In this document: positions 45,137 through 61,597 of the stretch, piece after piece
Layout: every line of letters starts with the position of its first letter
Position numbering within the stretch: position 1 is the first letter of the stretch
Assembly (NCBI GenBank): GCA_964449275.1
Contig: CAYVAM010000001.1
Span: 585 to 64,584 of the forward strand
Reading direction: 5' to 3'
Source: an uncultured Anaerolineales bacterium
GTDB lineage: Bacteria > Planctomycetota > Phycisphaerae > FEN-1346
Length of the DNA stretch: 64,000 nucleotides
Translations under genes and position numbers: made by a program
Notes under the pieces: generated by a model
Told to the model about the DNA's origin: nothing
What the model saw: only the letters and a program-made list of their open reading frames with translations
Database searches by the model: none

Positions 45137-45164
45137 TCCCTGAGACCCGAGCCGCGACCGTAAG

Positions 45165-48180: not shown

Positions 48181-49578
48181 TCAGAATGCCCCTCGGGCGA
48201 TCATCCCCGCTGCGAAAATGGCGACAATGAGGCCTGCTACCAGCGCCGCCCGCCCTGCGACGGGGCTGTGCAACTTGAACCGGATCAGCAGGAGTTTGGC
48301 GACCCACGCCGGCACCAGCGCGCCGACAAACGCCACGGAGATGCCCGTCAGGTAGTAGGCCTGGTAGAGCGGAATCGCCAGTCCGCACAGCAGGGCAAAC
48401 TTGCTCCATTCGATGCCCGTGACCCAGCGGGCCAGCCCGGAGCCGTTAAGCAGCGGGTCCAGCGCACACCGCTGGGCCTCGAAGGCCATCCCGAACGCCA
48501 AGATCGACAGCGGGAGCACCAGGTGCTGGTACTCGGGCCCGAAAATGCCCAGAAGGTGTTCGGGCAGCACCATGAACAACCCCAGGATGGCCGCGGCGGC
48601 CAGTCCGGTTCCCGTCAGTGCCCGGCGGACGAGTCCGGCCAGCACGCCGGCGTCGCGGCTGCCGTGGGCGTCGCTGACGGCCGGCAGCAGGGCGACCGCC
48701 ACCGGCCAAAGCAACACCTCATATCCGCGGGTCAGACTCCACAGCGGCACGTAATACCCGACGCTGCGATAGCCCTGCCCGTGCGGGTCCATCCACCAGA
48801 TGATGCAGATGGCCAGGTACTGGAGGATGAACGCCGCCGCCAGGGGCGTAAACAGGGCGGCTCCGACGCGCAGCCGCCGAAGCGGGCGGTACCCGGTCAG
48901 GCTCACCCTCGCGCCGCACCGGCGAAGGACGACCATCAGCAGGCCCAGGGCGAAGACCGCGGCCGAGCCGTACCAGAGGGTCCACCCGTGGACGATTTGC
49001 TCCCAAGGTCCGGCCAGAAGGGCAACGGCTGCGCAGATGCCCAGCCGCGGCAGATGGGTGACTGCGTTCTGGAGCAGGGAGTACTGCATCCGCTGAAAGC
49101 CGGCGAACACGCCGATCGTCTGCTGCATGAGGGTAGCGGCGACGACCCAGACCGCCACCAGGCGAACAAGCGGGGCCAAGCGGAGCATCTCGTCGGCGCG
49201 CCCGGCGGCCCCCACGGCCCGGGCAAGCCGCGGGAGGACCTCGGGAATCAGCAGCACGAAGGCCCCCAGCACCGCCCCGCCGACCGCCGACTGGAGCAGA
49301 CCGGCCCCGACCGCCTGGCCGGGCTTCGGTCCGCCCATCGCCGCCAGGCGACGCGAGATGAGCAGCGTGGAGGCCTGGCCCGCACCGAGGTCCGCCAGGA
49401 GCGACCCGATGCCGGAAATCAGCAGCAGCACCCCCAGTTGGCCGACCACATCGACCGAATAACGCCACGCTACGATGACCGTACTGGCGAACGAGACGAC
49501 GTTCACCAGGCCGGAGTCCACGAGCAGGAGGACGACGTTGCGGGAGAGGCGTCCGGTGATGCTTTGAAGCCTGGCCAT
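48181..49578 (-). CDS. Polysaccharide/oligosaccharide flippase (Wzx-like, MOP superfamily)
   Basis: About 466 aa with roughly 12-14 TM helices. Start is trimmed to MARLQSITG. The 5' part of the track ORF overlaps the upstream methyltransferase gene. Confidence 0.6.
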   Translation of the reverse strand: MARLQSITGRLSRNVVLLLVDSGLVNVVSFASTVIVAWRYSVDVVGQLGVLLLISGIGSLLADLGAGQASTLLISRRLAAMGGPKPGQAVGAGLLQSAVGGAVLGAFVLLIPEVLPRLARAVGAAGRADEMLRLAPLVRLVAVWVVAATLMQQTIGVFAGFQRMQYSLLQNAVTHLPRLGICAAVALLAGPWEQIVHGWTLWYGSAAVFALGLLMVVLRRCGARVSLTGYRPLRRLRVGAALFTPLAAAFILQYLAICIIWWMDPHGQGYRSVGYYVPLWSLTRGYEVLLWPVAVALLPAVSDAHGSRDAGVLAGLVRRALTGTGLAAAAILGLFMVLPEHLLGIFGPEYQHLVLPLSILAFGMAFEAQRCALDPLLNGSGLARWVTGIEWSKFALLCGLAIPLYQAYYLTGISVAFVGALVPAWVAKLLLIRFKLHSPVAGRAALVAGLIVAIFAAGMIARGAF

Positions 49579-49628: not shown

Positions 49629-50312
49629 TCACTCGGCGTCGACCCGGAAGAGCATCAGGGCAACCGCCTTGCCCTGGTAGTCGACCTGGGTGATCGTCGC
49701 GCCGACCTCGCGGAACAGGACCGGATAGTCGTGGGCGAACGTGTAGTCGTTGATGCTGAACGATTTGCCGCGGAGGTCGGGGGTCCGCACCTGCTCCTCG
49801 ATGCACCAGAGCGTTCGGCCGGTTACGCGGACCAGTTCGCGGATGCCGTCGCGAACGTCGTCCGGCGGCACGTGCATCAGCACGCCGTGCGTCACGACGG
49901 TCTTGAACGCCGCGTCGGCCAGCGGCAGCCGGGTCACGTCGCCGCAGACCAGGGGGACGTCCAGGGCGAACTCCCCGTGGACCTTGCGGAGCAGTTCCAG
50001 GCTGATGTCCAGGCCGTAGAGTCGGCACGGAAGGTCCGATTCGTCGTGGAGCATCTTCAGGTTGCGACCGAACCCGCAGCCGACCTCGAACACCTCAGTG
50101 GGATGGACCTCGCGGAGCCGCTCCAGCAGCCAGCGATTCGATTCGTGGAGTTCACGCTGATACGGTTGCCGGGCAAACCGGTCGGACCACTCGTTCCAGA
50201 ACCGCTTCGGATCGTAGCCGTTGCGGAGAAATCGCAGCGTGCCGTTTCTTAGATTCACCAGCCACCGCGCCAGGCGAAAGCGTGTCAGGAAGATTTTCAA
50301 TCGGTTAATCAC
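49629..50312 (-). CDS. Class I SAM-dependent methyltransferase
   Basis: Motif I VFEVGCGFGRN. Also LPLADAAFKTVVTHGVLMHV. It overlaps the Alg13-like gene by 8 nt. Confidence 0.7.
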   Translation of the reverse strand: MINRLKIFLTRFRLARWLVNLRNGTLRFLRNGYDPKRFWNEWSDRFARQPYQRELHESNRWLLERLREVHPTEVFEVGCGFGRNLKMLHDESDLPCRLYGLDISLELLRKVHGEFALDVPLVCGDVTRLPLADAAFKTVVTHGVLMHVPPDDVRDGIRELVRVTGRTLWCIEEQVRTPDLRGKSFSINDYTFAHDYPVLFREVGATITQVDYQGKAVALMLFRVDAE

Positions 50313-50811
50313 GCGCGATATTGTCCACGAAGGCCGCTACGGTGTCAACAAGCCTCTGCTTCAGGCGGTGGGTCTGGTAGCGGTGCCCGTCGCGTCGCTT
50401 GGTGATGGCTCTCTGGAGGGCCGGTTCGAGGTCCTGGATGTCGAGCACCGTTTCGCGCATGGCCGACTCGCCGCGGATGGCCTCGCAGATCTCACACTGG
50501 TGGTCGTTGTAGCACTCGCCGTGCCGCTTCTGCCGGGGCGCGAGCACCAGCGGAATGCCCAGGCGCCGGGCGGTCAGGATCGGCCCCGCCGAGCCGTGCG
50601 CCACCGCCACGTCCGACTTGCGGAACCGGTCCTGGAAATGGGCGAACGGGGCGAACTCGAACCATTCGGCGGCGTTCGCCGGCCGGCAGGTCGAGTACCC
50701 GATTTGCATCGTCACCTCGTGCTCGGGATGCCGGCCGGCCCAGGCGTCCATGGCCCGGACCAGGCGGTCCATCGGGTAGGGCAGGCTGCCCACGGTTACG
50801 AGGATCTTCAC
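50305..50811 (-). CDS. Alg13-like glycosyltransferase C-terminal-domain subunit (GT28 family; PssE/EpsF-type)
   Basis: 168 aa, VKILVTVGSLPYPMDRL...VAHGSAGPILTARRLGIPLVLAPR. The GTG start overlaps the Alg14-like stop (GTGA). GAGGGG RBS is present. Confidence 0.6.
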   Translation of the reverse strand: MKILVTVGSLPYPMDRLVRAMDAWAGRHPEHEVTMQIGYSTCRPANAAEWFEFAPFAHFQDRFRKSDVAVAHGSAGPILTARRLGIPLVLAPRQKRHGECYNDHQCEICEAIRGESAMRETVLDIQDLEPALQRAITKRRDGHRYQTHRLKQRLVDTVAAFVDNIARD

Positions 50812-51302
50812 AGGACTCGCCCCTCGTGGCGTGCCTTGGGTCCGAACATCCGGACCTGGTGCGGCCACTGGACCAGGAACAGGTCGCTCCACCGGTAGAG
50901 CCAGTGCGCGGTCACGGTGCACTTGTGGATGCGGGTGACGGTCTCGATGTAGATGTTGCGGGTTCGCCATAAGATCTTGCCCATGATGAACGGGCCGATG
51001 GCGATCTCGCTGCCGGTCGAGAACAGGATGTCCGGTCGCTCCCGCAGGAAGATCCGGACGAATTCCAGCAGGTTGACGATGAGCGAGAGGTAGAGCAACA
51101 GGCCCCGGGCGCCGAACAGGCTCACCAGGTGCACGCGGGAGACCAGCGGGTGGGTGAACGTGGCCATCTCGCCCCGGTGCCGGTATACGACGACGACCAG
51201 GTCGGTGTCGGCAAAGGCGTCGAAGCATTCGATCGCCTCTTCGAGGTGGCCTCCGCCGGAGACGATACACAGGGTTTTCCGTCGGCGGTTGCGGTTGGTC
51301 AT
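50808..51302 (-). CDS. Alg14-like glycosyltransferase N-terminal/membrane-anchor subunit (PssD/EpsE-type)
   Basis: LCIVSGGGHLEE signature plus a hydrophobic segment. Start is trimmed to MTNRNRRRK. It overlaps the upstream methyltransferase stop. Confidence 0.6.
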   Translation of the reverse strand: MTNRNRRRKTLCIVSGGGHLEEAIECFDAFADTDLVVVVYRHRGEMATFTHPLVSRVHLVSLFGARGLLLYLSLIVNLLEFVRIFLRERPDILFSTGSEIAIGPFIMGKILWRTRNIYIETVTRIHKCTVTAHWLYRWSDLFLVQWPHQVRMFGPKARHEGRVL

Positions 51303-52132
51303 CTCGCGTTTTGTATCCGCTCGAGGGTCATGTGGAAAGAATCGTGTCGCCACGCCCGCGGTCCGAGTCGTCCGACGGCCCGGCAGACGGCCCAGGCCGC
51401 ACGGAACAGCCAAGGCGAGGTCTCGCCCTTGGCCGCGGGCAGCCGCGTTACGTAACTGTAGAGGCCAACCGAGCCGGCGACCGGCCGCAGGCCGACCCGC
51501 CGGCCGAGGGCGGCGATCCGCCCCGGCCAGAGCGCCATCTCGTTGTCCGTGAACGTCCGCTCAATGACGTCCAGGCGGGCCACCCGCTTAATCACCTGGG
51601 CCCCGCCGAACGCCAGTACGTGATACGGGTACAGCAGGCTCAACTCGCCGATGAACACCCGGCCGCCGGGCGCCAGCACCCGGGCCGCCTCCGCCAGGAC
51701 GCGTTCCAGCCCGCGAAAGAAGAAATGGTGCAGCACGTTGAACAGCAGCACCGTCCGGACCGCCCCGTCGCCGACGGCAAGTCGCGAGGCGTCCGAGGCA
51801 ACAAACCGGACGTCCAGGTTCCGGGCCTTGGCTTCGGCCCGGCCGCTCTCGAGCATGGCCAGACTCACGTCGATCCCCACGCCGGGCCGGCTGTGGGCCT
51901 CGGCCAGGTTCAGCAGATGGAGACCGTCGCAGCAGCCGATCTCCAGCACCGGCTCGTCGGGCGGCAGGAACCTGAGCCAGTCCAGCAGCCCCATTTTGCC
52001 GTAGATGGCCAGGTACTCCGCCGGCGGGAGGCGGGTCCGCCGACGGTCCGCCGCCATGCGGTCGAAGGTGGCGGCGTCCGCCTTCCAGCCGGCCGCCTTC
52101 GCTGGTGTCCGGGTCCGCCGCTTCTCAGGCAA
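51299..52132 (-). CDS. Class I SAM-dependent methyltransferase
   Basis: Motif I VLEIGCCDGLH. Also LLFNVLHHFF and LAPGGRVFIGE. Confidence 0.7.
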   Translation of the reverse strand: MPEKRRTRTPAKAAGWKADAATFDRMAADRRRTRLPPAEYLAIYGKMGLLDWLRFLPPDEPVLEIGCCDGLHLLNLAEAHSRPGVGIDVSLAMLESGRAEAKARNLDVRFVASDASRLAVGDGAVRTVLLFNVLHHFFFRGLERVLAEAARVLAPGGRVFIGELSLLYPYHVLAFGGAQVIKRVARLDVIERTFTDNEMALWPGRIAALGRRVGLRPVAGSVGLYSYVTRLPAAKGETSPWLFRAAWAVCRAVGRLGPRAWRHDSFHMTLERIQNAR

Positions 52133-53615
52133 GGTTCGCGTACTCCGTACGGTAGAGCCCGTAGAGTTTCCAGAAGTACCGAACCTCCGGCCACCCCTTG
52201 ATTTTCCGCAGGGGCCGAATGGGGTTCAGGAACTTCGTCACCCGCGAGCGGTAGAACCGTCGGTAGGCCTCGTGCATCTTGTCGGCCAGTTGTTCGCGTG
52301 TGAAGTGCTCGGTGTCGCACATGGCCTCGCTCTGGTGGCCCTGGAACTGGCGCCGCAGGTGTTCGCCCAGGTCCGGCAGCAGGCCGCGGGCGCGGTAGAT
52401 GTCGAACAGCGGTGTCCCAGGGAAGGGCGTGGCCACGAAGAACGCCGCAAAGTCCAGGTCGCTGTCCACGGCGTAGCGGATGGTCTGTTCCACCTGGTCG
52501 GGCGTCTCGAACGGGAAGCCGATGATGAATGACGAATGGGTCCACATGCCGGCACGGTTGCACGCGCGGACGATCTCATTTGCCCGGTCCAGTTTGACCT
52601 GCGTCTTGCCGATGAATCGCAGCGTCTCGAGGCACCCGGTCTCGATACCGAAGGTCACCTTGTAACAGCCGCTGGCGGCCATCTTCTTGATTAACTCGTC
52701 GCTGAGCGTCCAGATGGCCACGCCGTTCGGCGTGCACCAGTGCAGGTCGAGCCGGCGGCGGAGGATCTCGTCGCAGATGACGATCATCCGTTTCGGGTTC
52801 AGCGTCAGGTTGTCGTCCTGGAAGGCCACCTCCCGTACGCCGTACGTCTTGACGAGCATCTCCAACTCCTCGACCACGCTCTCGGCGCTGCGGGCACGAT
52901 AGCCGTTGCGCCAAATCGAGTGGATCGAGCAGAAGACGCACCGGCACGGGCAGCCTCGGCTCGTGACGACGTTGGCCCGTGGCGGGGCCATCGCCACCCG
53001 GTTCCGGTACTCCTCGGCCAGGTAGTGCGGCATGTCGACCAAATCGCGGGCGAGCGGCGGCAGGCTGTCCAAGTCCGGGATAAACGGACGCGGCGGGTTC
53101 CGGACCACACGGCCGTCGCGGCGGACGGCGGTGCCCGCCACGTCGTCAAGCGGCTGTCCGCGGAGCCGACGGTCCACGATCTCCTGAAGCGTCGCCTCGC
53201 CCTCGCCGATCACCGCCAGGTCGATGTTTGGGTCTTCGAGCACCCAGTCGGGAAGGGCGGAGACGTGGCTGCCGCCCACCACCACGGGCACGTCGGGCCA
53301 GATGCCCTTGACCACGGCTGCCGCATCGTGCACGCCCCGGGAGTGCATCGTGAACATGCTGGTCAGACCGACGACATCGGGTCTGGGCAGACTCTCCAGC
53401 GCCGACCGCAACTCGGCATCACTCATGCCCGCCTTGAAGAATCCGTCGCCGCAATCCACGTAGTCGGCCCGCAGGGTGTCGAGGATGTGGACCTCGTGTC
53501 CCCTCTCGCGCACATAGGCCGCCAGCGCCATCAGGCCGAGCGGTTCGTCCACCTGGACGTGCGCGGGACCGCCGTAACGGGTGTAGGGAGGATTGACCAG
53601 CAGGACGAACGCCAT
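52125..53615 (-). CDS. B12-binding radical SAM protein (class B rSAM)
   Basis: N-terminal cobalamin-binding Rossmann block (VLLVNPP...LGLMALAAYVRERGHEVHILD). Radical SAM cluster motif CPCRCVFC (CxxxCxxC). Confidence 0.8.
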   Translation of the reverse strand: MAFVLLVNPPYTRYGGPAHVQVDEPLGLMALAAYVRERGHEVHILDTLRADYVDCGDGFFKAGMSDAELRSALESLPRPDVVGLTSMFTMHSRGVHDAAAVVKGIWPDVPVVVGGSHVSALPDWVLEDPNIDLAVIGEGEATLQEIVDRRLRGQPLDDVAGTAVRRDGRVVRNPPRPFIPDLDSLPPLARDLVDMPHYLAEEYRNRVAMAPPRANVVTSRGCPCRCVFCSIHSIWRNGYRARSAESVVEELEMLVKTYGVREVAFQDDNLTLNPKRMIVICDEILRRRLDLHWCTPNGVAIWTLSDELIKKMAASGCYKVTFGIETGCLETLRFIGKTQVKLDRANEIVRACNRAGMWTHSSFIIGFPFETPDQVEQTIRYAVDSDLDFAAFFVATPFPGTPLFDIYRARGLLPDLGEHLRRQFQGHQSEAMCDTEHFTREQLADKMHEAYRRFYRSRVTKFLNPIRPLRKIKGWPEVRYFWKLYGLYRTEYANLA

Positions 53616-53630
53616 GATTTCGGTTGTCCC

Positions 53631-54683
53631 CTAGAGCGTCTCGATCAGGTCGGCCAGGTTCGGGTCGTAACGCTTCGGGACGGCGATGCGATACGCCTTC
53701 GTCGGGGCGATCAGTTCCCGCAGCGCCTGGCCCAGACCTCGGTCCCACCCGTGGCCGTAGGTCGATTCCGGCACGACGTAACGGTACGCCTCCAGGAACC
53801 GGCCGATGCGAAAGCCGTGGCCGACGTAGGCCGTCCGCTCCATGCGGCAGTTCAGTTCCAGGGCCTCTGCGGCCGGGCCGAGTTTGAGAGGCGCCGGCTC
53901 AGGGGCGGCTTGCCCTTCCACAGCCTGGAGCAGGACGACCCGACCGAGCGACGCCTCCGCCACGAACGCCACGCTCACGTCCCGCCGGTGATACAGGTAC
54001 CGGAGAAGACGGAGTTTATCCCACAGCGACAGGTCCTCGTCTTCCATGTTTTGGAGTTGGAACTGGAACCACCGCGGGCTCGTCGGCATCGCCAGGACCA
54101 CCGTACCGCGCGGGGGCTGGTTCCGCAAGAGGACGAAGTCGTCGCTCATCGGCTGCCAGCCCCGGCGGCACAACTCGGCCACGAGGGCCGTCTTGTTCAC
54201 CCCGCCGCGCCCGGCGATGACGACGGACCGGCCGTCGCGCTCCACCGCCCCGGCATGGACCAGCCACAGACCCCGGGCCGCCAACTCGCACTCCAGCACC
54301 GGCCAGAGGACGTACAGGTGCATGACGAGGTCCGGGAACAACCGCCACGGTATGCGCCGGCGGTTCGCCTTGCCGTGGGCGAAGCGGATCCGCAGCGGCT
54401 TGCCGGCCGGGCGGTCCAGCCCGTCAATCTCCGCCCGCCACGACAGGCCCTTGTCCGACTCCTCCAGGTACAGGTAGCCCGGCCGGACCCAGTACCGGCG
54501 GTCCAGGGCCAGGCAGCCTTCGCGCCGCGGCTCGAACGGGCTGATACGCATCTCGATATCCGCCTGCCGGCCGTCGTCGCGAATCTCGAACCAGTGCAGT
54601 TTGGCGTTGATGTCGGGCACGGCGGCGCGGCAGAGGCCTTCGACGCGTACGGCCAGCCCGCGAATGTCGTAGAGGGCGTTCAC
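53631..54683 (-). CDS. HPr-kinase-like (HprK C-terminal-domain) P-loop protein with a degenerate Walker A
   Basis: The HprK-type core reads HAGAVERDGRSVVIAGRGGVNKTALVAELCRRGWQPMSDDFVLL. The P-loop reads GGVNKT, not GxGKT. It is a paralog of the upstream gene. The GTG start overlaps the upstream stop (GTGA), and a GGGGGAGG RBS is present. The track ORF extends to 54827. Confidence 0.55.
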   Translation of the reverse strand: MNALYDIRGLAVRVEGLCRAAVPDINAKLHWFEIRDDGRQADIEMRISPFEPRREGCLALDRRYWVRPGYLYLEESDKGLSWRAEIDGLDRPAGKPLRIRFAHGKANRRRIPWRLFPDLVMHLYVLWPVLECELAARGLWLVHAGAVERDGRSVVIAGRGGVNKTALVAELCRRGWQPMSDDFVLLRNQPPRGTVVLAMPTSPRWFQFQLQNMEDEDLSLWDKLRLLRYLYHRRDVSVAFVAEASLGRVVLLQAVEGQAAPEPAPLKLGPAAEALELNCRMERTAYVGHGFRIGRFLEAYRYVVPESTYGHGWDRGLGQALRELIAPTKAYRIAVPKRYDPNLADLIETL

Positions 54684-55741
54684 GGCGCCGCCTCCCCCGC
54701 CAGGTCGGCCTCGGCCCGAGCGCGGATCATCTCGAAGACGTCCGGCGTATAGCGGCCGGGTACGGTGACGCGGCGGCAGAGGCAATCGGCCAGACGGCGC
54801 CGCAGCGCCTCGCGCGCCTCGTCCCACAGGTTTGCCAGGTGGCTGCCCGGGTTGCCGTAGCGATAGGCGAGCAACATCGCCCGCAGTTCATCGGCCTCGA
54901 ACAGCGTGTTGATGAGGACGGACTCGGCGAACGGCTCGACGGGCTGCGGGTCGGAGATCGCCGCCTCCGGTCCCTGCATCAGCAGGTACACCGCTCCGAG
55001 GGGGGCGGCGTCCACGATCTGCTCGCCGAAGACGTCCACCGGGTCGATCCGCGAGAAGAGATTGATGTGCCCGAGCGTCGCCACCGACAGGCACCGCTTC
55101 AGGACAATCTCCGACCGCTTCCGCCGGCTGAACCGGATGCCCAGCAGCCGCTGCACGTCGTAGGTGAACCGCAGGTTGAACGGCACGACGAAACTGCGGA
55201 CGCCGCAGTCGGTCAGGATGGCCGAATCGTCGCCCATGAACCCCCATCCGCGGCGGGCAAAGTTGACCGCCGTAATCGTCTTGCCGGTGCCACCCCGGGC
55301 CGGGAGCAGCAGCGCTCGGCCGCCGAACGTCACCGCCGGGGCGTGCAGCAACAGGTGCCCCCGGCGGGCGAGGCTCAGCCGGACGAGCGAGTAAATCGTC
55401 TCGCCGGGAAACACCATCCGGGCGGGCGTGTTGGAGGCGATGCGCACCCGGAGCCGGTCGCCGTCGAGCCCCTCGATCTCGGTCCGCCAGCGGCCCACTT
55501 TCAGGCGGGAGTCGTAGAGCACGCGGCCCGGGGCGACCCACCACCGGCCGTCCACCGACAGCGTGCCGGCGAGATGCGGCTCGAACGGCCCGACCGCCAC
55601 GTCGATGTCTACGTCCTCGGCGGTCGGCTCGACGCGGTAGTGGGCGAACGTGGAGTCGAGGAAACTGTCGGCCCAGGTTCGGCGGTGCCGGCGGATGCGC
55701 AGCGTGACGAGGTCGTGGAAGTTATACTGGTCGACGATCAC
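54680..55741 (-). CDS. HPr-kinase-like (HprK C-terminal-domain) P-loop protein with an intact Walker A
   Basis: Core reads LHAPAVTFGGRALLLPARGGTGKTITAVNFARRGWGFMGDDSAIL (GxGKT plus DD). Its N-terminal domain is paralogous to the downstream gene (FEP...DGRWWVAPG... against FEPRREG...DRRYWVRPG). Confidence 0.6.
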   Translation of the reverse strand: MIVDQYNFHDLVTLRIRRHRRTWADSFLDSTFAHYRVEPTAEDVDIDVAVGPFEPHLAGTLSVDGRWWVAPGRVLYDSRLKVGRWRTEIEGLDGDRLRVRIASNTPARMVFPGETIYSLVRLSLARRGHLLLHAPAVTFGGRALLLPARGGTGKTITAVNFARRGWGFMGDDSAILTDCGVRSFVVPFNLRFTYDVQRLLGIRFSRRKRSEIVLKRCLSVATLGHINLFSRIDPVDVFGEQIVDAAPLGAVYLLMQGPEAAISDPQPVEPFAESVLINTLFEADELRAMLLAYRYGNPGSHLANLWDEAREALRRRLADCLCRRVTVPGRYTPDVFEMIRARAEADLAGEAAP

Positions 55742-55765
55742 CCTCAGGGCTCTCTCGGAAAGGTT

Positions 55766-57238
55766 TCAGGTGCCGACCGGCTGGGCGCGCCGGCCGTCCT
55801 CGGCGGAGGCCAAGGTTTCGGCTCGGCGGCGCAGATCGGTCAAGAGGGCCTGGTTGTTCGAGTAATCTTTGGGCTGGATATGAAGCAGGGCCCGAGCCAG
55901 GGCCCGGTTGCTGAGAATCCGAAGGAGTTGCCTCGGCCGAAGGTAAAACCGCAGGACCGCCTTCTTCTGCCAGCGCTCCAGGTCCCGTACGCTCAAGGTC
56001 GGCGTCCGCAGCACCGGGTGTTTCTGCTTGAACATTGCCGGATTGTTGCAGAGTTGCGACGGGTCGAAGTTCGTGATGAGCCCCTCGGCCACCGCCTTCT
56101 CGAACAGTTCCGTGCCGGGGAACGGCGTCGTGATGGTGAAGATCGCGAAGTCGGTGTTCAGGGCGCAGGCATAGTCGATGGTCTGGCGGATCGTCTCGGC
56201 GCTGTCGCAGTAGTTGCCGATCATGAAGAAAGCGAGCGTCCGGATGCCGGCGTTCTGCACGATGTCGAATGCCTCGCGGGCGCGGTCCAGGTTAAGGTTC
56301 TTCCTCAGGACCTGCTGGATGTCGGGGCTGCCGCTCTCGACGCCCAGCCCCAGGTGCCAGCATCCGGCCTCGTGCATGGCCTTTGCGAGGTCGGCGTCGA
56401 CCGAGTTGGCGTGCGAGAGGGCCATCCACGTCAGGTCCAGGTTCTCCTGGTGGATCCGCTCGCAGAACTCGTAGACGCGCTGCTTGTTGGCCGTCATGTT
56501 GTCTTCGCGGAACAGGATCTCGCGGGCCCCGTAGTCGCGCATCAGGACCTTGACCTCTTCGATCATCCGGTCGGAGGAGTTGAACCGGTACCGTTTGCCG
56601 AAGATCTCGTGTGCGCAGAAGATGCACCAGAACGGGCAGCCGCGGCTTGTGATCATCACATGCACGGGCTTGCGCTTGTACACGCGTCCGTAGTTGCGGT
56701 AGAGCGACATCGGCAGCAGGTGCCGGGCCGGCATGGGGCCGTCGTCCAGGTTGGCGATCAACTCGTAGTCGGGCAGATGGACCTGCTCGCCGTCGGTCTT
56801 GTAACTCAGACCGTTGGTGCCGAACCCGTCTCGCCGGCCGCCCAGGTAAGCCTGGCAGAACTCGCTGAAACTGAACTCCGCCTCGCCGCGGAGAACGTAA
56901 TCGACCTGAGGCTGGGCGAGCACGCCCTCGGGGTCGAGTGTCGGGTGCGGGCCGCCCAGGACCACCGCCGTCTGAGGCCGGGCCGCTTTGATGAGGGCGG
57001 CGAAATCCTCCGCGGCCTGGATCTCCGGCGTCGTGGCCGAAAGGCCCACGATCTGCGGGTCGATCCCGTCGATCCGCCGGAGCGCCCCGTCGACGTCCAG
57101 GCGCTCCATGCCGGCGTCCACCACCGAGACCCGGATGCCGTCCCGCTCCAGTTGGCCCCCCAGGTACAGCGGGCCCAGCGGCGGGGTGTTGCTCCGAATC
57201 CCCGGCGGGATGATCAGCAGGACGTCGGCCTCGGACAT
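55766..57238 (-). CDS. B12-binding radical SAM protein (second class B rSAM)
   Basis: Radical SAM cluster motif CPFWCIFC. N-terminal B12-binding block (VLLIIPPG...LGPLYLGGQLERDGIRVSVVD). Start is trimmed to MSEADVLL. The track's extra 317 N-terminal aa are antisense to the methyltransferase at 57443. Confidence 0.75.
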   Translation of the reverse strand: MSEADVLLIIPPGIRSNTPPLGPLYLGGQLERDGIRVSVVDAGMERLDVDGALRRIDGIDPQIVGLSATTPEIQAAEDFAALIKAARPQTAVVLGGPHPTLDPEGVLAQPQVDYVLRGEAEFSFSEFCQAYLGGRRDGFGTNGLSYKTDGEQVHLPDYELIANLDDGPMPARHLLPMSLYRNYGRVYKRKPVHVMITSRGCPFWCIFCAHEIFGKRYRFNSSDRMIEEVKVLMRDYGAREILFREDNMTANKQRVYEFCERIHQENLDLTWMALSHANSVDADLAKAMHEAGCWHLGLGVESGSPDIQQVLRKNLNLDRAREAFDIVQNAGIRTLAFFMIGNYCDSAETIRQTIDYACALNTDFAIFTITTPFPGTELFEKAVAEGLITNFDPSQLCNNPAMFKQKHPVLRTPTLSVRDLERWQKKAVLRFYLRPRQLLRILSNRALARALLHIQPKDYSNNQALLTDLRRRAETLASAEDGRRAQPVGT

Positions 57239-57380
57239 CGTCGTGTTCCCCAGTGGCGGCTGGAGGGCAGGATTCCCGACCCCCGAAAGATAAGCCTGCC
57301 GCCCCGTCAAGTCAAGCGAAAGGGCTGCCGCTGCCGGCCCCACTTCGCCACACGCGGGCACGGCGACGGGCGGGCGGCGG

Positions 57381-57442: not shown

Positions 57443-58201
57443 ATGAGGCACGCCGAATCCGACAATCAGAAACTGAGGGGTAAGGCCCGGCTTTTCGACC
57501 GTTGGATGCCGCAGGGCGTCGAGACGCTGCTGGACGTTGGCTGTGCCTACAGCCCCATGCTGCACCTGCTGGGCCGAAAAGCCCGGCTGGCCTGCGGCGT
57601 GGAATACGACTTCGAGAAACTCCGGCAGGCCGGCCGACGGTTTCCCGAGAATTGCTACATCCGCGCTTCCGGGGAGACCCTGCCGCTCGAGAGCGAGTCG
57701 ATGGACGTGGTCACCTTCTTCGAAGTGCTGGAACACGTGGGGCGCGAGCGGCGGTTCCTGGAAGAGGTACACCGCGTGCTGCGCCCCGCCGGCCGCATTA
57801 TCCTGAGCGTGCCCAACAAGGGCTTGGCTGAACCGCTCGACATGGATAACCTGGTTTTTGCCCCGGCCTTGAAGGTCGCCAAACGCCTGGGCCTGTTTCG
57901 CCGCGTCAGCGATTACCACCTCAGGCACCACCGCCATTACAACGTTCAGGATTTGGAAAGGCTCTTCGACGGTCTGTTCCGGATCGACGCGGTCTACTAC
58001 GGGGGACTGGTGGCCAACCAGATCGGGTTCCTGATCTACAAGTCCGGCACGGTTGGTCTGCGGCTGCTGGGTCTCGCCGAGGACGCGCCGCTGATGAAGC
58101 GCATGGAGGCCTGGATGAACACGGTGACCGACTGGGATTTCGACCATACCTACGGCCCGCGGTCCGACAAATTGGCCGTCCGCGCTCACCGGATCGGGTG
58201 A
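57443..58201 (+). CDS. Class I SAM-dependent methyltransferase
   Basis: Motif I LLDVGCAYSP. Also DVVTFFEVLEHV and LRPAGRIILSVPN. It is the tail of the track's artefactual 54839..58201 ORF. Confidence 0.7.
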   Translation: MRHAESDNQKLRGKARLFDRWMPQGVETLLDVGCAYSPMLHLLGRKARLACGVEYDFEKLRQAGRRFPENCYIRASGETLPLESESMDVVTFFEVLEHVGRERRFLEEVHRVLRPAGRIILSVPNKGLAEPLDMDNLVFAPALKVAKRLGLFRRVSDYHLRHHRHYNVQDLERLFDGLFRIDAVYYGGLVANQIGFLIYKSGTVGLRLLGLAEDAPLMKRMEAWMNTVTDWDFDHTYGPRSDKLAVRAHRIG

Positions 58202-58217
58202 AGGAGCCGATGCGTTT

Positions 58218-59825
58218 ATGCCTCAGGCCTCTGCGCAACCGTCTCGAAGGTCGACCCGGAGCGGGCGTCTGTTGCCGGTCCGCGCGAGTCTGCGCGAGCA
58301 CCCGGCTGCCTGCGCCTGGCTGGTCGCCCTGCTGATCGGATTGGCCGTCTTCGCCGTCGGCGCCGTCACCGACCCGTCGTTGGGCGACGAGAATTACCAT
58401 TTCCGCAAAGCGGCCCACTTTGCCCGGGCGGGCCGGCGCCTTACGCACGATCCCGACTATGGCCCCACCGTGCCGCCGGGCATCCCGTACTATGACGGGC
58501 CGCTGTGGCACGGCCTGTTGGCCGCCGTCTGGCGCGTGACCGGACCGAGCGTCCTGGTTGCCCAAGCATACCAGGCCCTGTGGGTGGTGCTGTTTGTGGG
58601 GCTGGCGTGGACGGCGGGCCGGCATCTGGGCGGCCCGGCGGCGGCGTGGTGGACAGCGCTGATAGCGGGGACGCTGCCCGTGACGCTGTTCTTTGGCGTC
58701 GTCCTCTACGTGGAGGCGGCCATGCTGGCGCTGTTGGCCGGGTGCGCCGCACTGCTGATTCGCCGCCGCGCGCTGCTCGCGGGCATCGCCTTCGGGGCGG
58801 CGTTTCTGGCGCGCCCCGCAGTGGCGGTGGCCTACCCGGCCTTTCTGGTGGGGTGCCTGCTTCTGGAAGAGCCGGCGTGGTCGAAGCGGCTGCTGAAGGC
58901 GTTTCTCGGCAGCCTCGGCGCCGCCCTGCTCATCACGCCGGACCTCGTGTGGCGCAAGATGAACCTGGGCACCATCGGCGTGGTTTACCTGACCCGCTCA
59001 GGCGGCGACCCCCACATTCCCGAAGCCATCCGCCGGATGCTGCTTGAGAAAGGGCCTGAGACGTTCTACTGGGCGGCGAGCGTTCTCAAGCCGGCGGACG
59101 TTCTCATGCACCTTGGCCTGGTGGTGCTGGTCGGGGCGGTGCTCTCGCTCGTTCTGATCCGCCGGCTGGGTCGGCCCGCCCAGGCGCTGTGGGCCGTGGC
59201 CGTCGCATTTCTCGTGCCCCAAGTGGCCATCATGGCCGTCAACCGGTTTCCGGACGTTCGGTACCTGATGCCCGTGTTCCCCGTGTTCGTGCTGCTGGCG
59301 GGGTGGGCTGTGTCGGCGGCGCTGGGGCGAAGCGGGAGACCTGTCCTGGCCGGGCTGATTATCCTGGTAGCCGTGGCCCAGGCCGGCAGCGTGGTCGCGT
59401 TCGTGTATTATCGCCGGCAGGTGGCCCCGGAGGCGATGGAGGCCATGCGAACGCTGGGTCGGCTCGACGTGCGCCACCCGCCGGGCTTTGTGGTATGCCC
59501 GGAGGCTTCGGTGACTACCTACAGCGGGCGGCCGATTCTTTGGGCGGCCATCAACCCGGGCGCCTTCTTCTTCCGCTGGTCTCCCGAGAAGCAGTGGACG
59601 CTGCTGGACTACTACGGTGTCGAGTTCATCGCCGTGCCGCAACACCGCGTCTACGACGACACGAAGACGAAGCACACGGGCGGTTTCCCGCGGAGTTACG
59701 TCCAGCGGCTGCCGGAACTGCCGTATGTCGCCGATGGCCCGGTGGTCAATCGGGGCGGGTTGACCGTTTACCGGGTCCGCCCCCGAGGGTCGGTGCCGGG
59801 TGGGGCTTCGTGTCCGTCCGGCTGA
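58218..59825 (+). CDS. GT-C fold membrane glycosyltransferase (ArnT/PMT-like, GT39/GT83-type)
   Basis: 535 aa with about 11 TM helices. DENYHFRKA acidic motif in the first periplasmic loop. Paralogous to 59768..61588. Confidence 0.6.
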   Translation: MPQASAQPSRRSTRSGRLLPVRASLREHPAACAWLVALLIGLAVFAVGAVTDPSLGDENYHFRKAAHFARAGRRLTHDPDYGPTVPPGIPYYDGPLWHGLLAAVWRVTGPSVLVAQAYQALWVVLFVGLAWTAGRHLGGPAAAWWTALIAGTLPVTLFFGVVLYVEAAMLALLAGCAALLIRRRALLAGIAFGAAFLARPAVAVAYPAFLVGCLLLEEPAWSKRLLKAFLGSLGAALLITPDLVWRKMNLGTIGVVYLTRSGGDPHIPEAIRRMLLEKGPETFYWAASVLKPADVLMHLGLVVLVGAVLSLVLIRRLGRPAQALWAVAVAFLVPQVAIMAVNRFPDVRYLMPVFPVFVLLAGWAVSAALGRSGRPVLAGLIILVAVAQAGSVVAFVYYRRQVAPEAMEAMRTLGRLDVRHPPGFVVCPEASVTTYSGRPILWAAINPGAFFFRWSPEKQWTLLDYYGVEFIAVPQHRVYDDTKTKHTGGFPRSYVQRLPELPYVADGPVVNRGGLTVYRVRPRGSVPGGASCPSG

Positions 59826-61588
59826 GGCGCGGCGTCGCCTCGGTGGGCGGCCTGGGCCGGCCGTTCCGGTGTTTCGGGTTCCTCCGGCATCCGCCACGCT
59901 CGTGGCATTCGCTCGGGATGCACCTGGTAGACGAGGAACTTCCCCTCCGCGTCGCCGTCGTAGTCGGGCGGGTAGACCGGTTCCAGGTACGGCCGGCGGT
60001 CCAGCGTGGCGATCCAGTCGCGCGGATACTCCATGACGGGGCGGGTAGGGACGGCGGGCGGCCCCCGGCGCGTCGGGTGGACGGCGATGTAGTCGATGCC
60101 GAGCACGCTCAGTATCGTGGCCTGGGCCGGCTCCGTGGTGGTGAAAAAGAACCGTGGCAGCACCGCCGCCCAGAAGATAGGCCGGCCGGTCAGCGTCGTC
60201 AGGTTCTCTTCCAGGTACAGGAAGCGGGCATCCGGTTCGGTGTGTCGGCGAATCCATCGGTAGGCGGCAACGGTCTGCTCGGGCAACTGCCGATTGGCAT
60301 GGACAACAGCCGGCGCGGCGGCCAGTTGAACCGCGCACAGGACCACCAGCGCGCTTGCGCCGATGCGGGCGGGCCGGCGCCATCGGTCGGTCCGCGAGAA
60401 GGGGCGGAGCGCCACCAGCGCCCCGGCCAGCAGTAAGCCGGCCGGAAGCGTCACCGGTTCCAGGTACCGCACGTCGTAGGCCCTGCGAAGCATAACGACG
60501 TACGCCGCCAGGTAGAAGAGCAGCGGCAGACCGCAGACCACAATGCTCCGGGGAAGGTGGGAACCCGAGATTGCCGGTTCGTTGCCGGAGGCTTTGCTGG
60601 GCCGACGCTTCAGGAGCCGGCGAACGCGGCCGACCGGCGCACCGACCGTCACCGCGACGGCCCAGCCGAGAGCCACCAGGCCCCCGACGCCGAACATCTT
60701 GAGATCATGCGTCGGGTTGAAGATGCTGAGCGGCACGGCAGTCCGTTCGGGCACGGGCATCCGGTTGGAGGCTAGCAACAACCAGTCGGGGTAGAACGGG
60801 GTCGTGCTCACGTAGTGCCGTAACTTGATCGGTTGGCCGAAATGGACGCTCTGCCAGATCAGGTCCGGGGCCACGGCCACCAGCGTGACCGCGATCGCCA
60901 GCCCCACCCGGCCCAGGCGACGTTTCCAACTGTTCCCCATAACGAGCAGCGCCGCGACAAGGGTCGGCGGAATCAGAACCGAGGCGGTGGTCTGCTTTGT
61001 CAGGTACATGCCCGCCAAGGCCAGCCCCATCAGCACCGCCCGCCGACGCAACAGAAAATAGAAAGCGGCGGCGGCGAAGGCCAGCACCGGCACCTCCAGG
61101 TAAAACGTCATGGCAAAGAGCAGGTTCATCGGGACCGTCAGCACCAGGACCCAGGCCCACACCCCCCCGCGATGGCCGTACAGTTCCCGCCCGCACAGGT
61201 ACGTGAAGATGCCGAGGGCGAAGAGAAACGCCCCGTGATAGACCTGGGCCGCCCACAGGGCCGGCGTGCCGAGGACCTTCCACACCAGGGCCAGGCCCAT
61301 GTGCCAGAGCGCCGCCCCCCAGTAGAGCACTGCGGCGAGCCCCTCGGGCGGATACGCCGGATCGTGCGTCACGCGGAAGTCCGGCCATTGTGCCTCGAAA
61401 CAGTTGATGGCATGGCGAAAGTGCCTGGCCTCGTCGCCGAGGATCGGTTCCGTGCCGTACGTCCACGCCCCTGCGTATCCGCAGACCAGCAGCGTCGCGA
61501 GCGAGACGGCCAGCAGCCGCCGACGGTTCGACGCCGGCTCTCCGTCCGGCAGCAGGTTCGCGGGATGGTTCGAGTGCGGACGGGTCAT
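59768..61588 (-). CDS. GT-C fold membrane glycosyltransferase (ArnT/PMT-like), paralog
   Basis: 606 aa, multi-TM. GDEARHFRHA motif. Its 3' end overlaps the convergent paralog by 58 bp. Confidence 0.6.
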   Translation of the reverse strand: MTRPHSNHPANLLPDGEPASNRRRLLAVSLATLLVCGYAGAWTYGTEPILGDEARHFRHAINCFEAQWPDFRVTHDPAYPPEGLAAVLYWGAALWHMGLALVWKVLGTPALWAAQVYHGAFLFALGIFTYLCGRELYGHRGGVWAWVLVLTVPMNLLFAMTFYLEVPVLAFAAAAFYFLLRRRAVLMGLALAGMYLTKQTTASVLIPPTLVAALLVMGNSWKRRLGRVGLAIAVTLVAVAPDLIWQSVHFGQPIKLRHYVSTTPFYPDWLLLASNRMPVPERTAVPLSIFNPTHDLKMFGVGGLVALGWAVAVTVGAPVGRVRRLLKRRPSKASGNEPAISGSHLPRSIVVCGLPLLFYLAAYVVMLRRAYDVRYLEPVTLPAGLLLAGALVALRPFSRTDRWRRPARIGASALVVLCAVQLAAAPAVVHANRQLPEQTVAAYRWIRRHTEPDARFLYLEENLTTLTGRPIFWAAVLPRFFFTTTEPAQATILSVLGIDYIAVHPTRRGPPAVPTRPVMEYPRDWIATLDRRPYLEPVYPPDYDGDAEGKFLVYQVHPERMPRAWRMPEEPETPERPAQAAHRGDAAPQPDGHEAPPGTDPRGRTR

Positions 61589-61597
61589 CGTTGTCCC

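What the first reader, a model, noticed from the sequence alone, without database searches (positions are those of the whole stretch)
52125..57238. A rSAM, two HprK-like proteins and a second rSAM form a module inside a 10-gene overlapping operon; the HprK-like pair is a kinase plus a pseudokinase-like paralog
Two paralogous HprK-C-terminal-type P-loop proteins lie between two B12-binding radical SAM enzymes. The upstream HprK-like protein has an intact GxGKT loop. The downstream one reads GGVNKT, suggesting an inactive or regulatory paralog. Stop/start overlaps (GTGA, ATGA) couple the genes translationally, down through methyltransferases, the Alg14/Alg13 subunits, Wzx and another methyltransferase. 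HprK-like kinases outside HPr signalling are known mainly as tailoring kinases, for example on lasso-peptide tails. Their coupling to class B rSAM methylases in a glycan-export operon is not a described pathway. It could phosphorylate or C-methylate a sugar or a peptide-like substrate.
Basis: partly seen in the sequence, partly recalled or inferred. Interest (0 to 1): 0.72.

Follow-up and report, generated by a model that had tools for sequence, protein, structure and literature searches.

The report
Paired mini-PEPCK-like kinases in glycan operon
Two adjacent, related P-loop proteins (one with a normal ATP-binding loop, one with a conserved altered loop) form an uncharacterised enzyme pair that sits in surface-sugar biosynthesis gene clusters of bacteria and archaea, here flanked by two B12-type radical SAM enzymes.

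Summary
On the minus strand, rSAM1 (55766-57238), X1 (54680-55741, ARGGTGKT), X2 (53631-54683, GRGGVNKT) and rSAM2 (52125-53615) open a 10-gene co-directional operon with 4- and 8-bp overlaps. It continues through methyltransferases, Alg14/Alg13 and a Wzx-like flippase.

The pair is ancient and appears obligate. There are 342 family representatives, split about 1:1 between canonical and deviant loops. In 15 of 15 loci the canonical gene directly precedes the deviant one. The pair occurs in Planctomycetota, Omnitrophota and the archaeon Methanoculleus.

X2 is not decayed: it keeps Lys, Thr, His, Asp-Asp and Glu at least as strongly as X1.

The constant neighbours are glycan genes, not peptides. 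No precursor ORF or RRE was found. B12-rSAM linkage is frequent in bacteria but not universal: one close relative lacks rSAM2 and two archaeal-type loci have no rSAM.

My best reading is a two-subunit phosphotransferase that tailors a sugar or lipid-linked glycan. The substrate is unknown.

The parts
55766..57238 (-). rSAM1: B12-binding-domain radical SAM enzyme (490 aa), first gene of the operon
   Evidence: Pfam B12-binding 75.5 bits and Radical_SAM 63.9 bits, both above cut-off. CPFWCIFC at residue 201. Best NCBIfam matches are HpnJ (204 bits, cut-off 578) and BchE. Best solved relative is AprD4, 6fd2, E 1e-28.
54680..55741 (-). X1: PEPCK/HprK-fold P-loop protein with canonical Walker A (ARGGTGKT, nt 55277-55300), His133 and Asp171-Asp172
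53631..54683 (-). X2: paralog of X1 with deviant loop (GRGGVNKT, nt 54189-54212). GTG start overlaps the X1 stop (GTGA)
52125..53615 (-). rSAM2: second B12-binding-domain radical SAM enzyme (496 aa), paralog of rSAM1
   Evidence: Pfam B12-binding 82.7 bits and Radical_SAM 77.3 bits. CPCRCVFC at residue 222. 33% identical to rSAM1. Best NCBIfam match is the Sden_1168 P-methyltransferase family, 223 bits against a cut-off of 575. Absent from the close relative L007.
51299..52132 (-). SAM-dependent methyltransferase (MT_d). Putative TTG start overlaps the rSAM2 stop by 8 bp
   Evidence: Pfam Methyltransf_25/11. Junction.
50808..51302 (-). Alg14-like membrane subunit of a split glycosyltransferase (ATGA overlap with MT_d)
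   Evidence: Pfam Alg14 35.8 bits, cut-off 27. Junction.
50305..50811 (-). Alg13-like catalytic subunit (Glyco_tran_28_C), GTGA overlap with Alg14
   Evidence: Pfam 36.1 bits, cut-off 22. Junction.
49629..50312 (-). SAM-dependent methyltransferase (MT_c)
   Evidence: Pfam Methyltransf_25/11. Junction.
48181..49578 (-). Polytopic membrane protein, Wzx-like flippase (465 aa)
   Evidence: No direct Pfam hit. Hydrophobic sequence. Homologous to the L003 gene that carries Polysacc_synt/MatE.
47415..48164 (-). SAM-dependent methyltransferase (MT_b), last gene of the operon
   Evidence: Pfam Methyltransf_11/25. Junction.
57287..57315 (-). Sigma-70-like promoter match (TTGACT-17-TATCTT) about 50 nt upstream of the rSAM1 ATG, in the divergent intergenic region
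   Evidence: Consensus scan only; 2 sites found against 0.8 expected. Weak evidence.
57443..59825 (+). Divergent genes: methyltransferase MT_e (57443-58201) and a PMT_2-type GT-C glycosyltransferase (58218-59825)
   Evidence: Pfam. The same arrangement occurs in L001, L006 and L007.
59768..62920 (-). Second PMT_2 GT-C (59768-61588), hexapeptide acyltransferase (61598-62227) and a second hexapeptide-like ORF (about 62285-62920)
   Evidence: Pfam. Sequence reading for the second hexapeptide ORF.
43907..47252 (+). Left arm of the glycan island: DegT aminotransferase, methyltransferase MT_a and a FemAB/Acetyltransf_6-like transferase
   Evidence: Pfam. Syntenic in L007.

Best explanation
X1 and X2 are the two subunits of one enzyme. 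It is an uncharacterised, ancient, tandem-encoded pair of trimmed PEPCK/HprK-fold P-loop proteins.

X1 carries the canonical nucleotide-binding Walker A. X2 carries a conserved non-glycine loop but keeps the Lys-Thr, His and Asp-Asp/Glu residues.

Inferred: X1 binds ATP and donates the phosphoryl group. X2 supplies a second phosphate-, metal- or acceptor-binding site.

The enzyme most likely phosphorylates a sugar, either a nucleotide-sugar or a lipid-linked oligosaccharide intermediate. This would occur on the cytoplasmic side of a Wzx-dependent surface-glycan pathway, built by Alg14/Alg13, flipped by the Wzx-like protein and finished by PMT_2-type GT-C enzymes.

The two B12-domain radical SAM enzymes are co-tailoring enzymes of the same glycan. 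They could perform C-methylation, or a radical rearrangement or deoxygenation as in HpnJ and AprD4. They are frequent bacterial companions rather than obligate partners.

Shown: gene anatomy, paralogy, fold, loop dichotomy, tandem order and neighbourhood. Inferred: heteromer formation, phosphotransfer, glycan substrate and rSAM chemistry.
For: - Paralogy and translational coupling are established.
- Both AF2 models are confident, with pLDDT 91.5 and 92.5.
- The His..GxGK[ST]..DD core aligns to HprK/P at E 2e-5.
- An exhaustive profile search finds 342 representatives at E<=1e-30.
- Among 141 representatives with a readable loop, 73 are canonical and 68 deviant.
- In 15 of 15 distinct loci the canonical gene is immediately followed by the deviant one, usually overlapping.
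- X2-type proteins keep H143, K164, T165, D181, D182 and E282 at 90-100%.
- Every neighbourhood is a glycan cluster. Partners include Alg14/13, GT2, GT4, PMT_2, DegT, hexapeptide acyltransferases, FemAB or ATP-grasp, Wzx/Polysacc_synt and methyltransferases. This holds in Planctomycetota, Omnitrophota, unassigned metagenomic contigs and Methanoculleus.
- The superfamily already contains a small-molecule kinase. Five of 40 members match the FomB phosphonate-monophosphate kinase model, best E 3.4e-10.
Against: - No biochemical data exist for any member.
- Neither kinase activity nor a heteromer has been shown, and I could not run a multimer prediction.
- All family-model matches are far below their cut-offs.
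- The acceptor is unknown.
- The PEPCK-like fold would also fit carboxylate or enolate chemistry, or PPi or Pi use.
- The second Asp (D172) is only 49% conserved in X1-type proteins. This is odd if X1 alone is the catalytic subunit.
- Neighbourhood evidence comes from about 20 loci, not a genome-wide statistic.
Confidence: 0.55

Rival explanations
1. PEPCK-like chemistry rather than simple hydroxyl phosphorylation. The pair would act on a carboxylate or keto-acid sugar such as a uronic or ulosonic acid. It could form an acyl- or enol-phosphate for amidation or decarboxylation, or use PPi or PEP instead of ATP.
For: - The whole-protein fold is closest to ATP-PEPCK.
- His133 and Asp171-Asp172 align with the PEPCK and HprK core. 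From my own knowledge of E. coli PEPCK, these correspond to the His232 and Asp268-Asp269 metal-site region.
- X2-type proteins conserve the Asp-Asp and Glu more strongly than X1-type.
- Neighbours include amino-sugar enzymes and amino-acid ligase-type enzymes (FemAB-like, ATP-grasp) that could use an activated carboxylate.
- HprK/P and one PEPCK class are known to use PPi (established knowledge; PPi-PEPCK 8e1u appears among the hits).
Against: - The proteins are about 350 aa, against more than 500 for PEPCK.
- PEPCK family models match only 1-2 of 40 members, at E about 1e-3.
- I obtained no residue-level structural alignment for the oxaloacetate-binding residues.
- No uronic-acid dehydrogenase lies inside the island. 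The nearest UDP-sugar dehydrogenase is about 20 kb away.
Confidence: 0.15
2. Non-catalytic or accessory role. The pair would be an ATP-binding scaffold or chaperone that presents the substrate to, or assembles or regulates, the B12-radical SAM enzymes or glycosyltransferases, with no phosphoryl transfer to the product.
For: - The pair sits tightly between two rSAMs in 6 of 9 close loci.
- At least one B12-rSAM is present in all close loci and in 3 of 3 distant bacterial-type loci.
- One subunit has a non-canonical loop, as in many regulatory pseudo-NTPases.
Against: - The pair occurs without any rSAM in the archaeal-type loci L016 and L017, and without rSAM2 in L007.
- Both subunits keep the full set of catalytic-type residues under strong constraint.
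Confidence: 0.15
3. RiPP-type tailoring. X1 and X2 would phosphorylate a ribosomal peptide, as the HprK-like kinases of paeninodin-type lasso peptides and lpp clusters do, and the rSAMs would modify the same peptide.
For: - Weak matches to HprK-related kinase A and B and to ScmC, families that occur in peptide-modification cassettes.
- HprK-like kinases phosphorylate precursor-peptide Ser residues (PMC13381572).
- The ApyD RiPP rSAM model is among the sub-threshold hits for both rSAMs.
Against: - Gaps and overlaps within the module are +24, -4, +15 and -8 bp, which leaves no room for a precursor gene.
- Every small ORF conserved in L001 and L003 lies inside a large gene.
- No RRE/PqqD gene, peptidase, lasso cyclase or ABC exporter is present in the island.
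- All neighbourhoods are glycan clusters.
Confidence: 0.05
4. Regulatory protein kinase/phosphorylase of the HprK/P type that controls the activity of the glycan-assembly enzymes.
For: The HprK/P core motif matches. In the alignment printed, X2 shares slightly more sequence with HprK than X1 does.
Against: - There is no Hpr_kinase_N domain.
- None of the annotated window genes is HPr or a PTS component.
- The pair is embedded in translationally coupled biosynthetic operons.
Confidence: 0.07

Closest known systems
ATP-dependent phosphoenolpyruvate carboxykinase (PckA; e.g. 1ii2, 1aq2)
   Different: X1 and X2 are about 350 aa, against more than 500 for PEPCK, and share only 12-14% identity with it. 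PEPCK sequence models barely match. The proteins occur as an obligate two-gene pair, one with a non-Gly loop, inside glycan operons rather than central metabolism.
HPr kinase/phosphorylase (HprK/P; 1ko7, 1jb1, 2qmh)
   Different: The match covers only about 50 residues by sequence and about 130 by structure. Pfam Hpr_kinase_C scores 10.8 and 16.8 bits against a cut-off of 33.3. There is no HprK N-terminal domain and no HPr or PTS context.
HprK-related kinase A/B (TIGR04352, TIGR04355), SynChlorMet cassette protein ScmC (TIGR04249, Pfam PF27840) and RiPP HprK-like kinases (paeninodin-type, LppK)
   Same: These are the nearest named families. HprK_rel_A and HprK_rel_B each match 33 of 40 members, and ScmC matches 9 of 40. 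Precomputed PF27840 'ScmC' hits are recorded for the Phycisphaerae-clade proteins. All are stand-alone HprK-superfamily proteins in biosynthetic cassettes. From memory, ScmC cassettes also contain radical SAM enzymes.
   Different: Scores are 15-35 bits against cut-offs of 125-200. The partner rSAMs here are B12-domain class B, not SPASM. No precursor peptide or RRE is present. The context is glycan rather than peptide, and the canonical/deviant tandem pairing is not a described feature of those families.
FomB phosphonate-monophosphate kinase (NF000361)
   Same: It is a small-molecule kinase of the same superfamily. Five of 40 family members match it, best E 3.4e-10. From established knowledge, it also sits in a cluster (fosfomycin) that contains a B12-radical SAM enzyme, Fom3.
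   Different: The window proteins themselves do not match the FomB model at E<=1. No PEP mutase or other phosphonate genes occur in the island.
WbdD-type kinase/methyltransferase capping of O-antigen (E. coli O9a)
   Same: This is a functional analogy only, drawn from established knowledge. WbdD is a kinase working with a SAM methyltransferase to decorate a glycan with methyl-phosphate. Here X2 is directly followed by a methyltransferase in L007, L010 and L012.
   Different: WbdD has a eukaryotic-like kinase fold and works in an ABC-transporter pathway. I did not test any homology.

Membership tests
HPr kinase/phosphorylase (HprK/P) | Pfam Hpr_kinase_C (PF07475) or TIGR00679 at or above the curated cut-off | tested here: not met
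   PF07475 scores 10.8 bits for X1 and 16.8 bits for X2, against a cut-off of 33.3. TIGR00679 scores 16.6 bits against 240.
HPr kinase/phosphorylase (HprK/P) | N-terminal Hpr_kinase_N domain, with HPr/PTS partner genes | tested here: not met
HPr kinase/phosphorylase (HprK/P) | Catalytic core: His, Walker A GxxGxGK[ST], Asp-Asp | tested here: met
   X1 has H133, ARGGTGKT and D171-D172. X2 has H143 and D181-D182, but its loop reads GRGGVNKT, so the Gly is lost.
PEP carboxykinase (ATP) | Two-domain PEPCK fold | tested here: met
PEP carboxykinase (ATP) | Sequence-family membership (TIGR00224 / PRK09344) and full length above 500 aa with the oxaloacetate-binding residues | tested here: not met
   There is no hit for the window proteins at E<=1. 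Only 1-2 of 40 family members match, at E about 1e-3. Length is 350-353 aa. Oxaloacetate-site residues could not be mapped.
HprK-related kinase A / B (TIGR04352, TIGR04355) | Score at or above the curated cut-off (200 bits) | tested here: not met
   HprK_rel_A scores 30.4 and 35.5 bits. HprK_rel_B scores 15.8 and 23.9 bits. The matches cover the P-loop core only.
SynChlorMet cassette protein ScmC (TIGR04249 / PF27840) | Model score at or above the cut-off, in a cassette with SPASM-type radical SAM enzymes | tested here: inconclusive
   TIGR04249 scores 15.5 and 28.4 bits against 125, so it is not met. The database's precomputed annotation lists PF27840 'ScmC' for the Phycisphaerae-clade X1 (weak) and X2, but that model is not in the Pfam copy I could run. 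The partner rSAMs carry B12-binding domains, and no SPASM family appears among the Pfam hits returned for them.
RiPP tail kinases (lasso/lpp HprK-like kinases) | Adjacent precursor peptide gene and an RRE (PqqD-like) protein | tested here: not met
   Intergenic space is at most 24 bp inside the module. No stand-alone conserved small ORF was found. No PqqD/RRE, peptidase or lasso cyclase appears in the Pfam scans of the island.
Class B (B12-binding domain) radical SAM enzymes | N-terminal B12-binding domain plus a radical SAM core with CxxxCxxC | tested here: met
   PF02310 scores 75.5 and 82.7 bits. PF04055 scores 63.9 and 77.3 bits. The cysteine motifs are CPFWCIFC and CPCRCVFC.
Class B radical SAM methylases (a specific named subfamily) | Equivalog-level match to a characterised methylase, or demonstrated methyl transfer | tested here: not met
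   The best models are HpnJ (204/578), BchE (194/481) and Sden_1168 P-methyltransferase (223/575), all far below cut-off. The closest solved relative of rSAM1 is the non-methylating dehydratase AprD4. The chemistry cannot be tested with these tools.
Alg13/Alg14-type split glycosyltransferase | Adjacent Alg14 (PF08660) and Glyco_tran_28_C (PF04101) genes scoring above cut-off | tested here: met
   Scores are 35.8 bits against 27 and 36.1 bits against 22. The two genes overlap by 4 bp.

The most novel reading that the evidence does not exclude
X1-X2 would define a previously unrecognised two-subunit enzyme class. It is a trimmed PEPCK-fold heteromer with one ATP-binding subunit and one deviant-loop subunit. 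The class is shared by Bacteria and Archaea and dedicated to tailoring cell-surface glycans. In Planctomycetota and Omnitrophota it would work with up to four B12-radical SAM enzymes and several methyltransferases. Together they would build a sugar modification not yet described in any glycan, such as a phosphorylated and C-methylated or ring-rearranged amino sugar.
Probability: 0.35. Interest if true: 0.75.

Novelty: new variant of a known kind. Interest (0 to 1): 0.58.

Why it matters
If the reading is right, the PEPCK/HprK kinase superfamily gains a branch with a new quaternary logic, an obligate pair of canonical and deviant P-loop subunits. It would also gain a new substrate class, glycans. 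So far its known substrates are oxaloacetate/PEP, HPr, RiPP peptides and fosfomycin phosphate.

The pair gives a concrete handle on otherwise opaque surface-glycan clusters of poorly studied phyla: Phycisphaerae, Omnitrophota and methanogens. Those clusters contain several B12-radical SAM enzymes of unknown chemistry.

It is also a clean natural test case. Here a 'pseudo-kinase' paralog is as conserved as its catalytic partner, so one can ask what that subunit does.

Tried and rejected
- **Precursor peptide search.** I took all 20-110 aa ORFs in 46-62.5 kb and ran tblastn against the loci fetched at that point (L001-L005). Every hit lies inside a large gene in another frame or on the other strand, so there is no stand-alone conserved small ORF.
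- **Literature.** Searches for ScmC/SynChlorMet (only unrelated acronyms), HPr kinase + radical SAM + lasso peptide, HprK-like terms, Alg14 + radical SAM and PEPCK-like + glycan found nothing on this family. They returned only RiPP HprK-like kinases.
- **Genome scan with the joint alignment.** The search for related loci with the mixed X1+X2 alignment failed for lack of a conserved stretch. The X1-only alignment returned just 7 loci.
- **Third word-indexed homolog search.** A diverse profile returned almost only proteins already seen.
- **AlphaFold-database fold search.** It was not available, so no annotated AFDB neighbours were obtained.
- **Weak hit P0040.** It has PF27840 and scores E 5e-4, but its context is unrelated. 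I do not count it as a member.
- **Phosphonate idea.** I considered a phosphonate pathway because of the P-methyltransferase-like rSAM2 and the FomB matches. I rejected it because the island contains no PEP mutase or other phosphonate genes.
- **RNA elements.** Rfam and tRNA scans of the window found only tRNA-Met at 38819-38893. No cobalamin riboswitch lies near the operon.

Full report
**1. What is in the sequence**

The window has about 67% G+C. Its gene content includes tandem sulfatases, glycoside hydrolases and a protein with an HZS_alpha domain. The closest homologs come from Phycisphaerae and Planctomycetia MAGs. The window therefore most likely comes from a member of the Planctomycetota.

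The finding lies on the minus strand. Reading frames, start codons and junctions were checked directly.

| Gene | Coordinates | Length | Key feature |
|---|---|---|---|
| rSAM1 | 55766-57238 | 490 aa | CPFWCIFC at residue 201 |
| X1 | 54680-55741 | 353 aa | ARGGTGKT at residues 148-155 |
| X2 | 53631-54683 | 350 aa | GTG start inside GTGA with the X1 stop; GRGGVNKT at residues 158-165 |
| rSAM2 | 52125-53615 | 496 aa | CPCRCVFC at residue 222 |

Six more co-directional genes follow. The junctions, in order, are: MT_d (-8 bp), Alg14 (-4, ATGA), Alg13 (-4, GTGA), MT_c (-8), a Wzx-like membrane protein (+50) and MT_b (+16).

A sigma-70-like match lies about 50 nt upstream of rSAM1, in the divergent region shared with a plus-strand methyltransferase and a PMT_2 GT-C gene.

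The whole glycan island runs from about 43.3 to 63 kb. Besides the operon it contains:
- a DegT aminotransferase;
- a FemAB/Acetyltransf_6-like transferase;
- two PMT_2 GT-C enzymes;
- one or two hexapeptide acyltransferases;
- six SAM-dependent methyltransferases in all.

X1 and X2 are paralogs (29% identity, E 2e-34). So are rSAM1 and rSAM2 (33% identity, E 1e-62).

**2. What X1 and X2 are**

No curated model claims them.
- Pfam Hpr_kinase_C scores 10.8 and 16.8 bits against a cut-off of 33.3.
- NCBIfam HprK-related kinase A, HprK-related kinase B and ScmC score 15-35 bits against cut-offs of 125-200. These matches cover only about 50 residues around the P-loop.
- A profile of the family matches solved HprK/P structures at E 2e-5. 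The aligned segment is His, then G-x-G-K-[ST], then Asp-Asp. ATP-PEPCKs match more weakly.

AlphaFold2 models built on a 36-sequence alignment are confident, with pLDDT 91.5 and 92.5 and pTM 0.90.

| Fold search | ATP-PEPCK | HprK/P |
|---|---|---|
| Foldseek, X1 | E about 1e-8, TMq 0.52-0.59 | E about 2.5e-5, TMq 0.31 |

So "HprK-C-terminal-type" is correct for the phosphate-binding core only. Each protein as a whole is a trimmed two-domain PEPCK-like fold.

**3. The pair is ancient, obligate in order, and X2 is not degenerate**

The word-indexed searches found only 40 relatives of X1 and 29 of X2. The exhaustive profile search found far more: 342 cluster representatives at E<=1e-30, all about 340-365 aa and matching full length.

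Among 141 representatives with a readable loop, 73 have Gly before the Walker Lys and 68 do not. The replacements are F 28, H 11, Y 10 and N 6, with the other 13 spread over ten further residues. Asn is the Phycisphaerae-clade version.

In every locus where both positions are in view (15 of 15 distinct loci), the canonical gene is immediately followed by the deviant one. The two usually overlap by 4-17 bp. This is the pattern expected for two subunits made in equal amounts.

I aligned 72 canonical and 70 deviant proteins and scored conservation by type.

| Position (X1 numbering) | X1-type | X2-type |
|---|---|---|
| His133 | 100% | 100% |
| Lys154 | 100% | 100% |
| Thr155 | 93% | 96% |
| Asp171 | 100% | 99% |
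| Asp172 | 49% | 90% |
| Glu282 | 75% | 96% |
| Lys81 | 94% | 33% |
| Asn104 | 86% | 16% |

X2 is therefore a conserved partner with a deviant loop, not a decayed pseudokinase. From my own knowledge of E. coli PEPCK, His232 and Asp268-Asp269 belong to its metal sites. If the equivalence holds, X2 preserves a metal- or substrate-binding site better than X1 does. This was not checked by residue-level superposition.

**4. Neighbourhoods**

Close relatives (63-88% identity) and two more distant bacterial lineages (33-45% identity) keep the pair inside the same kind of island. Those islands contain B12-rSAM genes, Alg14/Alg13, methyltransferases, a Wzx or Polysacc_synt protein, PMT_2, LPG_synthase_TM, hexapeptide acyltransferases, FemAB-like genes and DegT.

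The strict order rSAM-X1-X2-rSAM occurs in 6 of 9 close loci. The exceptions are:
- L007, a Phycisphaerae MAG 81% identical in X1, which has X2 followed directly by MT_d and no rSAM2;
- L008, which has other B12-rSAM paralogs further downstream;
- L010 (Omnitrophota), which has four B12-rSAMs in a rearranged order.

More distant members lie between GT4 and GT2 genes with one B12-rSAM nearby (L015, L018, L019).

In Methanoculleus sp. 10 (L016) and an archaeal-type contig (L017), the pair sits with DegT, GFO_IDH_MocA, a hexapeptide acyltransferase (L016 only), ATP-grasp or HAD genes and GT2 genes. No radical SAM lies within 10 kb.

The invariant association is thus with glycan and amino-sugar biosynthesis. 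B12-rSAM linkage is frequent in bacteria but not obligatory.

**5. Peptide substrate?**

A peptide substrate is unlikely, for four reasons.
- Inside the module the gaps are +24, -4, +15 and -8 bp.
- Every small ORF with conservation in the related loci searched maps inside a large gene.
- No RRE/PqqD gene, peptidase or exporter typical of RiPP clusters is present.
- Characterised HprK-like tailoring kinases depend on such partners (PMC13381572).

**6. The radical SAM enzymes**

Both have a B12-binding domain and an intact CxxxCxxC motif, so class B membership is met. No equivalog model comes near its cut-off.
- rSAM1: HpnJ 204 bits against 578, BchE 194 against 481.
- rSAM2: Sden_1168 P-methyltransferase 223 bits against 575, BchE 180.

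The nearest solved relative of rSAM1 is AprD4, a sugar diol-dehydratase (E 1e-28). For rSAM2 the nearest are an unnamed entry (9ccb) and TokK.

From established knowledge, HpnJ and AprD4 act on amino sugars without methylating them. "Methylase" is therefore an open assumption.

**7. Most likely mechanism**

Shown: two translationally coupled PEPCK/HprK-fold subunits, one with a canonical nucleotide loop, inside a cytoplasmic-face glycan assembly operon.

Inferred: X1 and X2 form a heteromer. The heteromer transfers phosphate from ATP to a sugar hydroxyl, or another oxygen nucleophile, of a nucleotide-sugar or lipid-linked oligosaccharide. The modified unit is further tailored by the rSAMs and SAM methyltransferases. 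It is then flipped by the Wzx-like protein and transferred or extended by the PMT_2 GT-C enzymes.

A methyltransferase directly follows X2 in L007, L010 and L012. This allows a kinase-plus-methyltransferase decoration analogous to WbdD, but that is only an analogy.

The matches of some family members to the FomB kinase model (5 of 40, best E 3.4e-10) show that this superfamily already includes a small-molecule kinase.

Rivals, with my confidence in each:
- PEPCK-like carboxylate, enolate or PPi chemistry: 0.15.
- Accessory or scaffold role for the rSAMs: 0.15. The rSAM-free archaeal-type loci count against it.
- HprK-type protein regulation: 0.07.
- RiPP kinase: 0.05.

**8. Novelty and score**

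I found no description of this family. PGAP names the Methanoculleus protein 'hypothetical protein', and five literature searches were empty. A very recent Pfam model, PF27840 'ScmC', partly covers the Phycisphaerae clade in precomputed annotations, so the superfamily link is already known to curators.

New here are:
- the whole-protein PEPCK-like fold;
- the universal tandem of a canonical and a deviant-loop paralog;
- the strong conservation of the deviant subunit;
- the glycan context in both Bacteria and Archaea;
- the recurrent but facultative coupling to B12-radical SAM enzymes.

I class this as a new variant of a known kind, the PEPCK/HprK superfamily kinases of biosynthetic clusters. 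Interest is 0.58. The genomic case is solid and the experiments are clear, but the substrate and chemistry remain unknown, and the finding does not overturn an established view.

Noticed in passing
L007:11059-12932 (Phycisphaerae MAG JAWODB010000130.1): A close relative (X1 81% identical) has the same operon but lacks rSAM2 altogether. X2 is followed directly by the MT_d ortholog. This is a natural 'deletion' that could show what rSAM2 adds to the glycan.
   Followed up: partly
L016:10001-12078 (Methanoculleus sp. 10, GCA_913757945.1): The canonical/deviant pair (SQSGAGKT then GRPGVWKT) also occurs in a methanogenic archaeon. It sits next to DegT, hexapeptide acyltransferase, GFO_IDH_MocA, ATP-grasp and GT2 genes, with no radical SAM within 10 kb.
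   Followed up: partly
L019:3782-5924 and 9965-11038: One metagenomic locus carries the usual X1-X2 pair and a third family member 4 kb downstream in the same glycan cluster. My loop pattern gave no match for it; one search reads the loop of the near-identical cluster representative P0158 as AKGHTGKT. DUF362 sits next to a B12-rSAM here and also occurs in L001.
   Followed up: no
alignment A5 members: Five of 40 diverse family members match the FomB phosphonate-monophosphate kinase model (best E 3.4e-10), although the window proteins do not. This suggests that FomB is a branch of the same superfamily.
   Followed up: no
L010:3614-15859 (Omnitrophota MAG JBFMBJ010000007.1): Four B12-domain radical SAM paralogs lie in one glycan cluster around the X1-X2 pair. 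L001, L003 and L008 each have three. The radical SAM complement is expanding and contracting between lineages.
   Followed up: partly
window:48181-49578 (-): The Wzx-like flippase gives no Pfam hit at E<=0.01, and its L001 ortholog also has none on record. Only the more distant L003 ortholog carries Polysacc_synt/MatE. It appears to be a divergent MOP-family branch.
   Followed up: partly
window:62285-63459: Beyond the annotated hexapeptide acyltransferase there is a second left-handed beta-helix-like ORF (about 62285-62920, minus strand). An ArsR-type HTH regulator follows at 63001-63459 (plus strand), then a methyltransferase that runs off the window end. These were read from the sequence only.
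   Followed up: no
window:26312-28912 (+): An 866-aa protein has a hydrazine-synthase alpha middle-domain match (HZS_alpha, 66.5 bits) in a non-anammox-looking context.
   Followed up: no
window:11222-14614 (+), 5055-6314 (+), 33672-34925 (-): Three ORFs with strong coding signal (GC3 0.83-0.85) have no Pfam family at E<=1e-5. They are 1130, 419 and 417 aa long.
   Followed up: no
window:20388-24393 (+): Two tandem sulfatase genes lie here. GH10, GH57, GH42-like and glucuronyl-esterase-like genes occur elsewhere in the window. This is typical of polysaccharide-degrading Planctomycetota.
   Followed up: no
window:28000-31100: This stretch has the lowest G+C in the window (0.63-0.65). My GC3 filter called no ORF between 28912 and 31134.
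   Followed up: no
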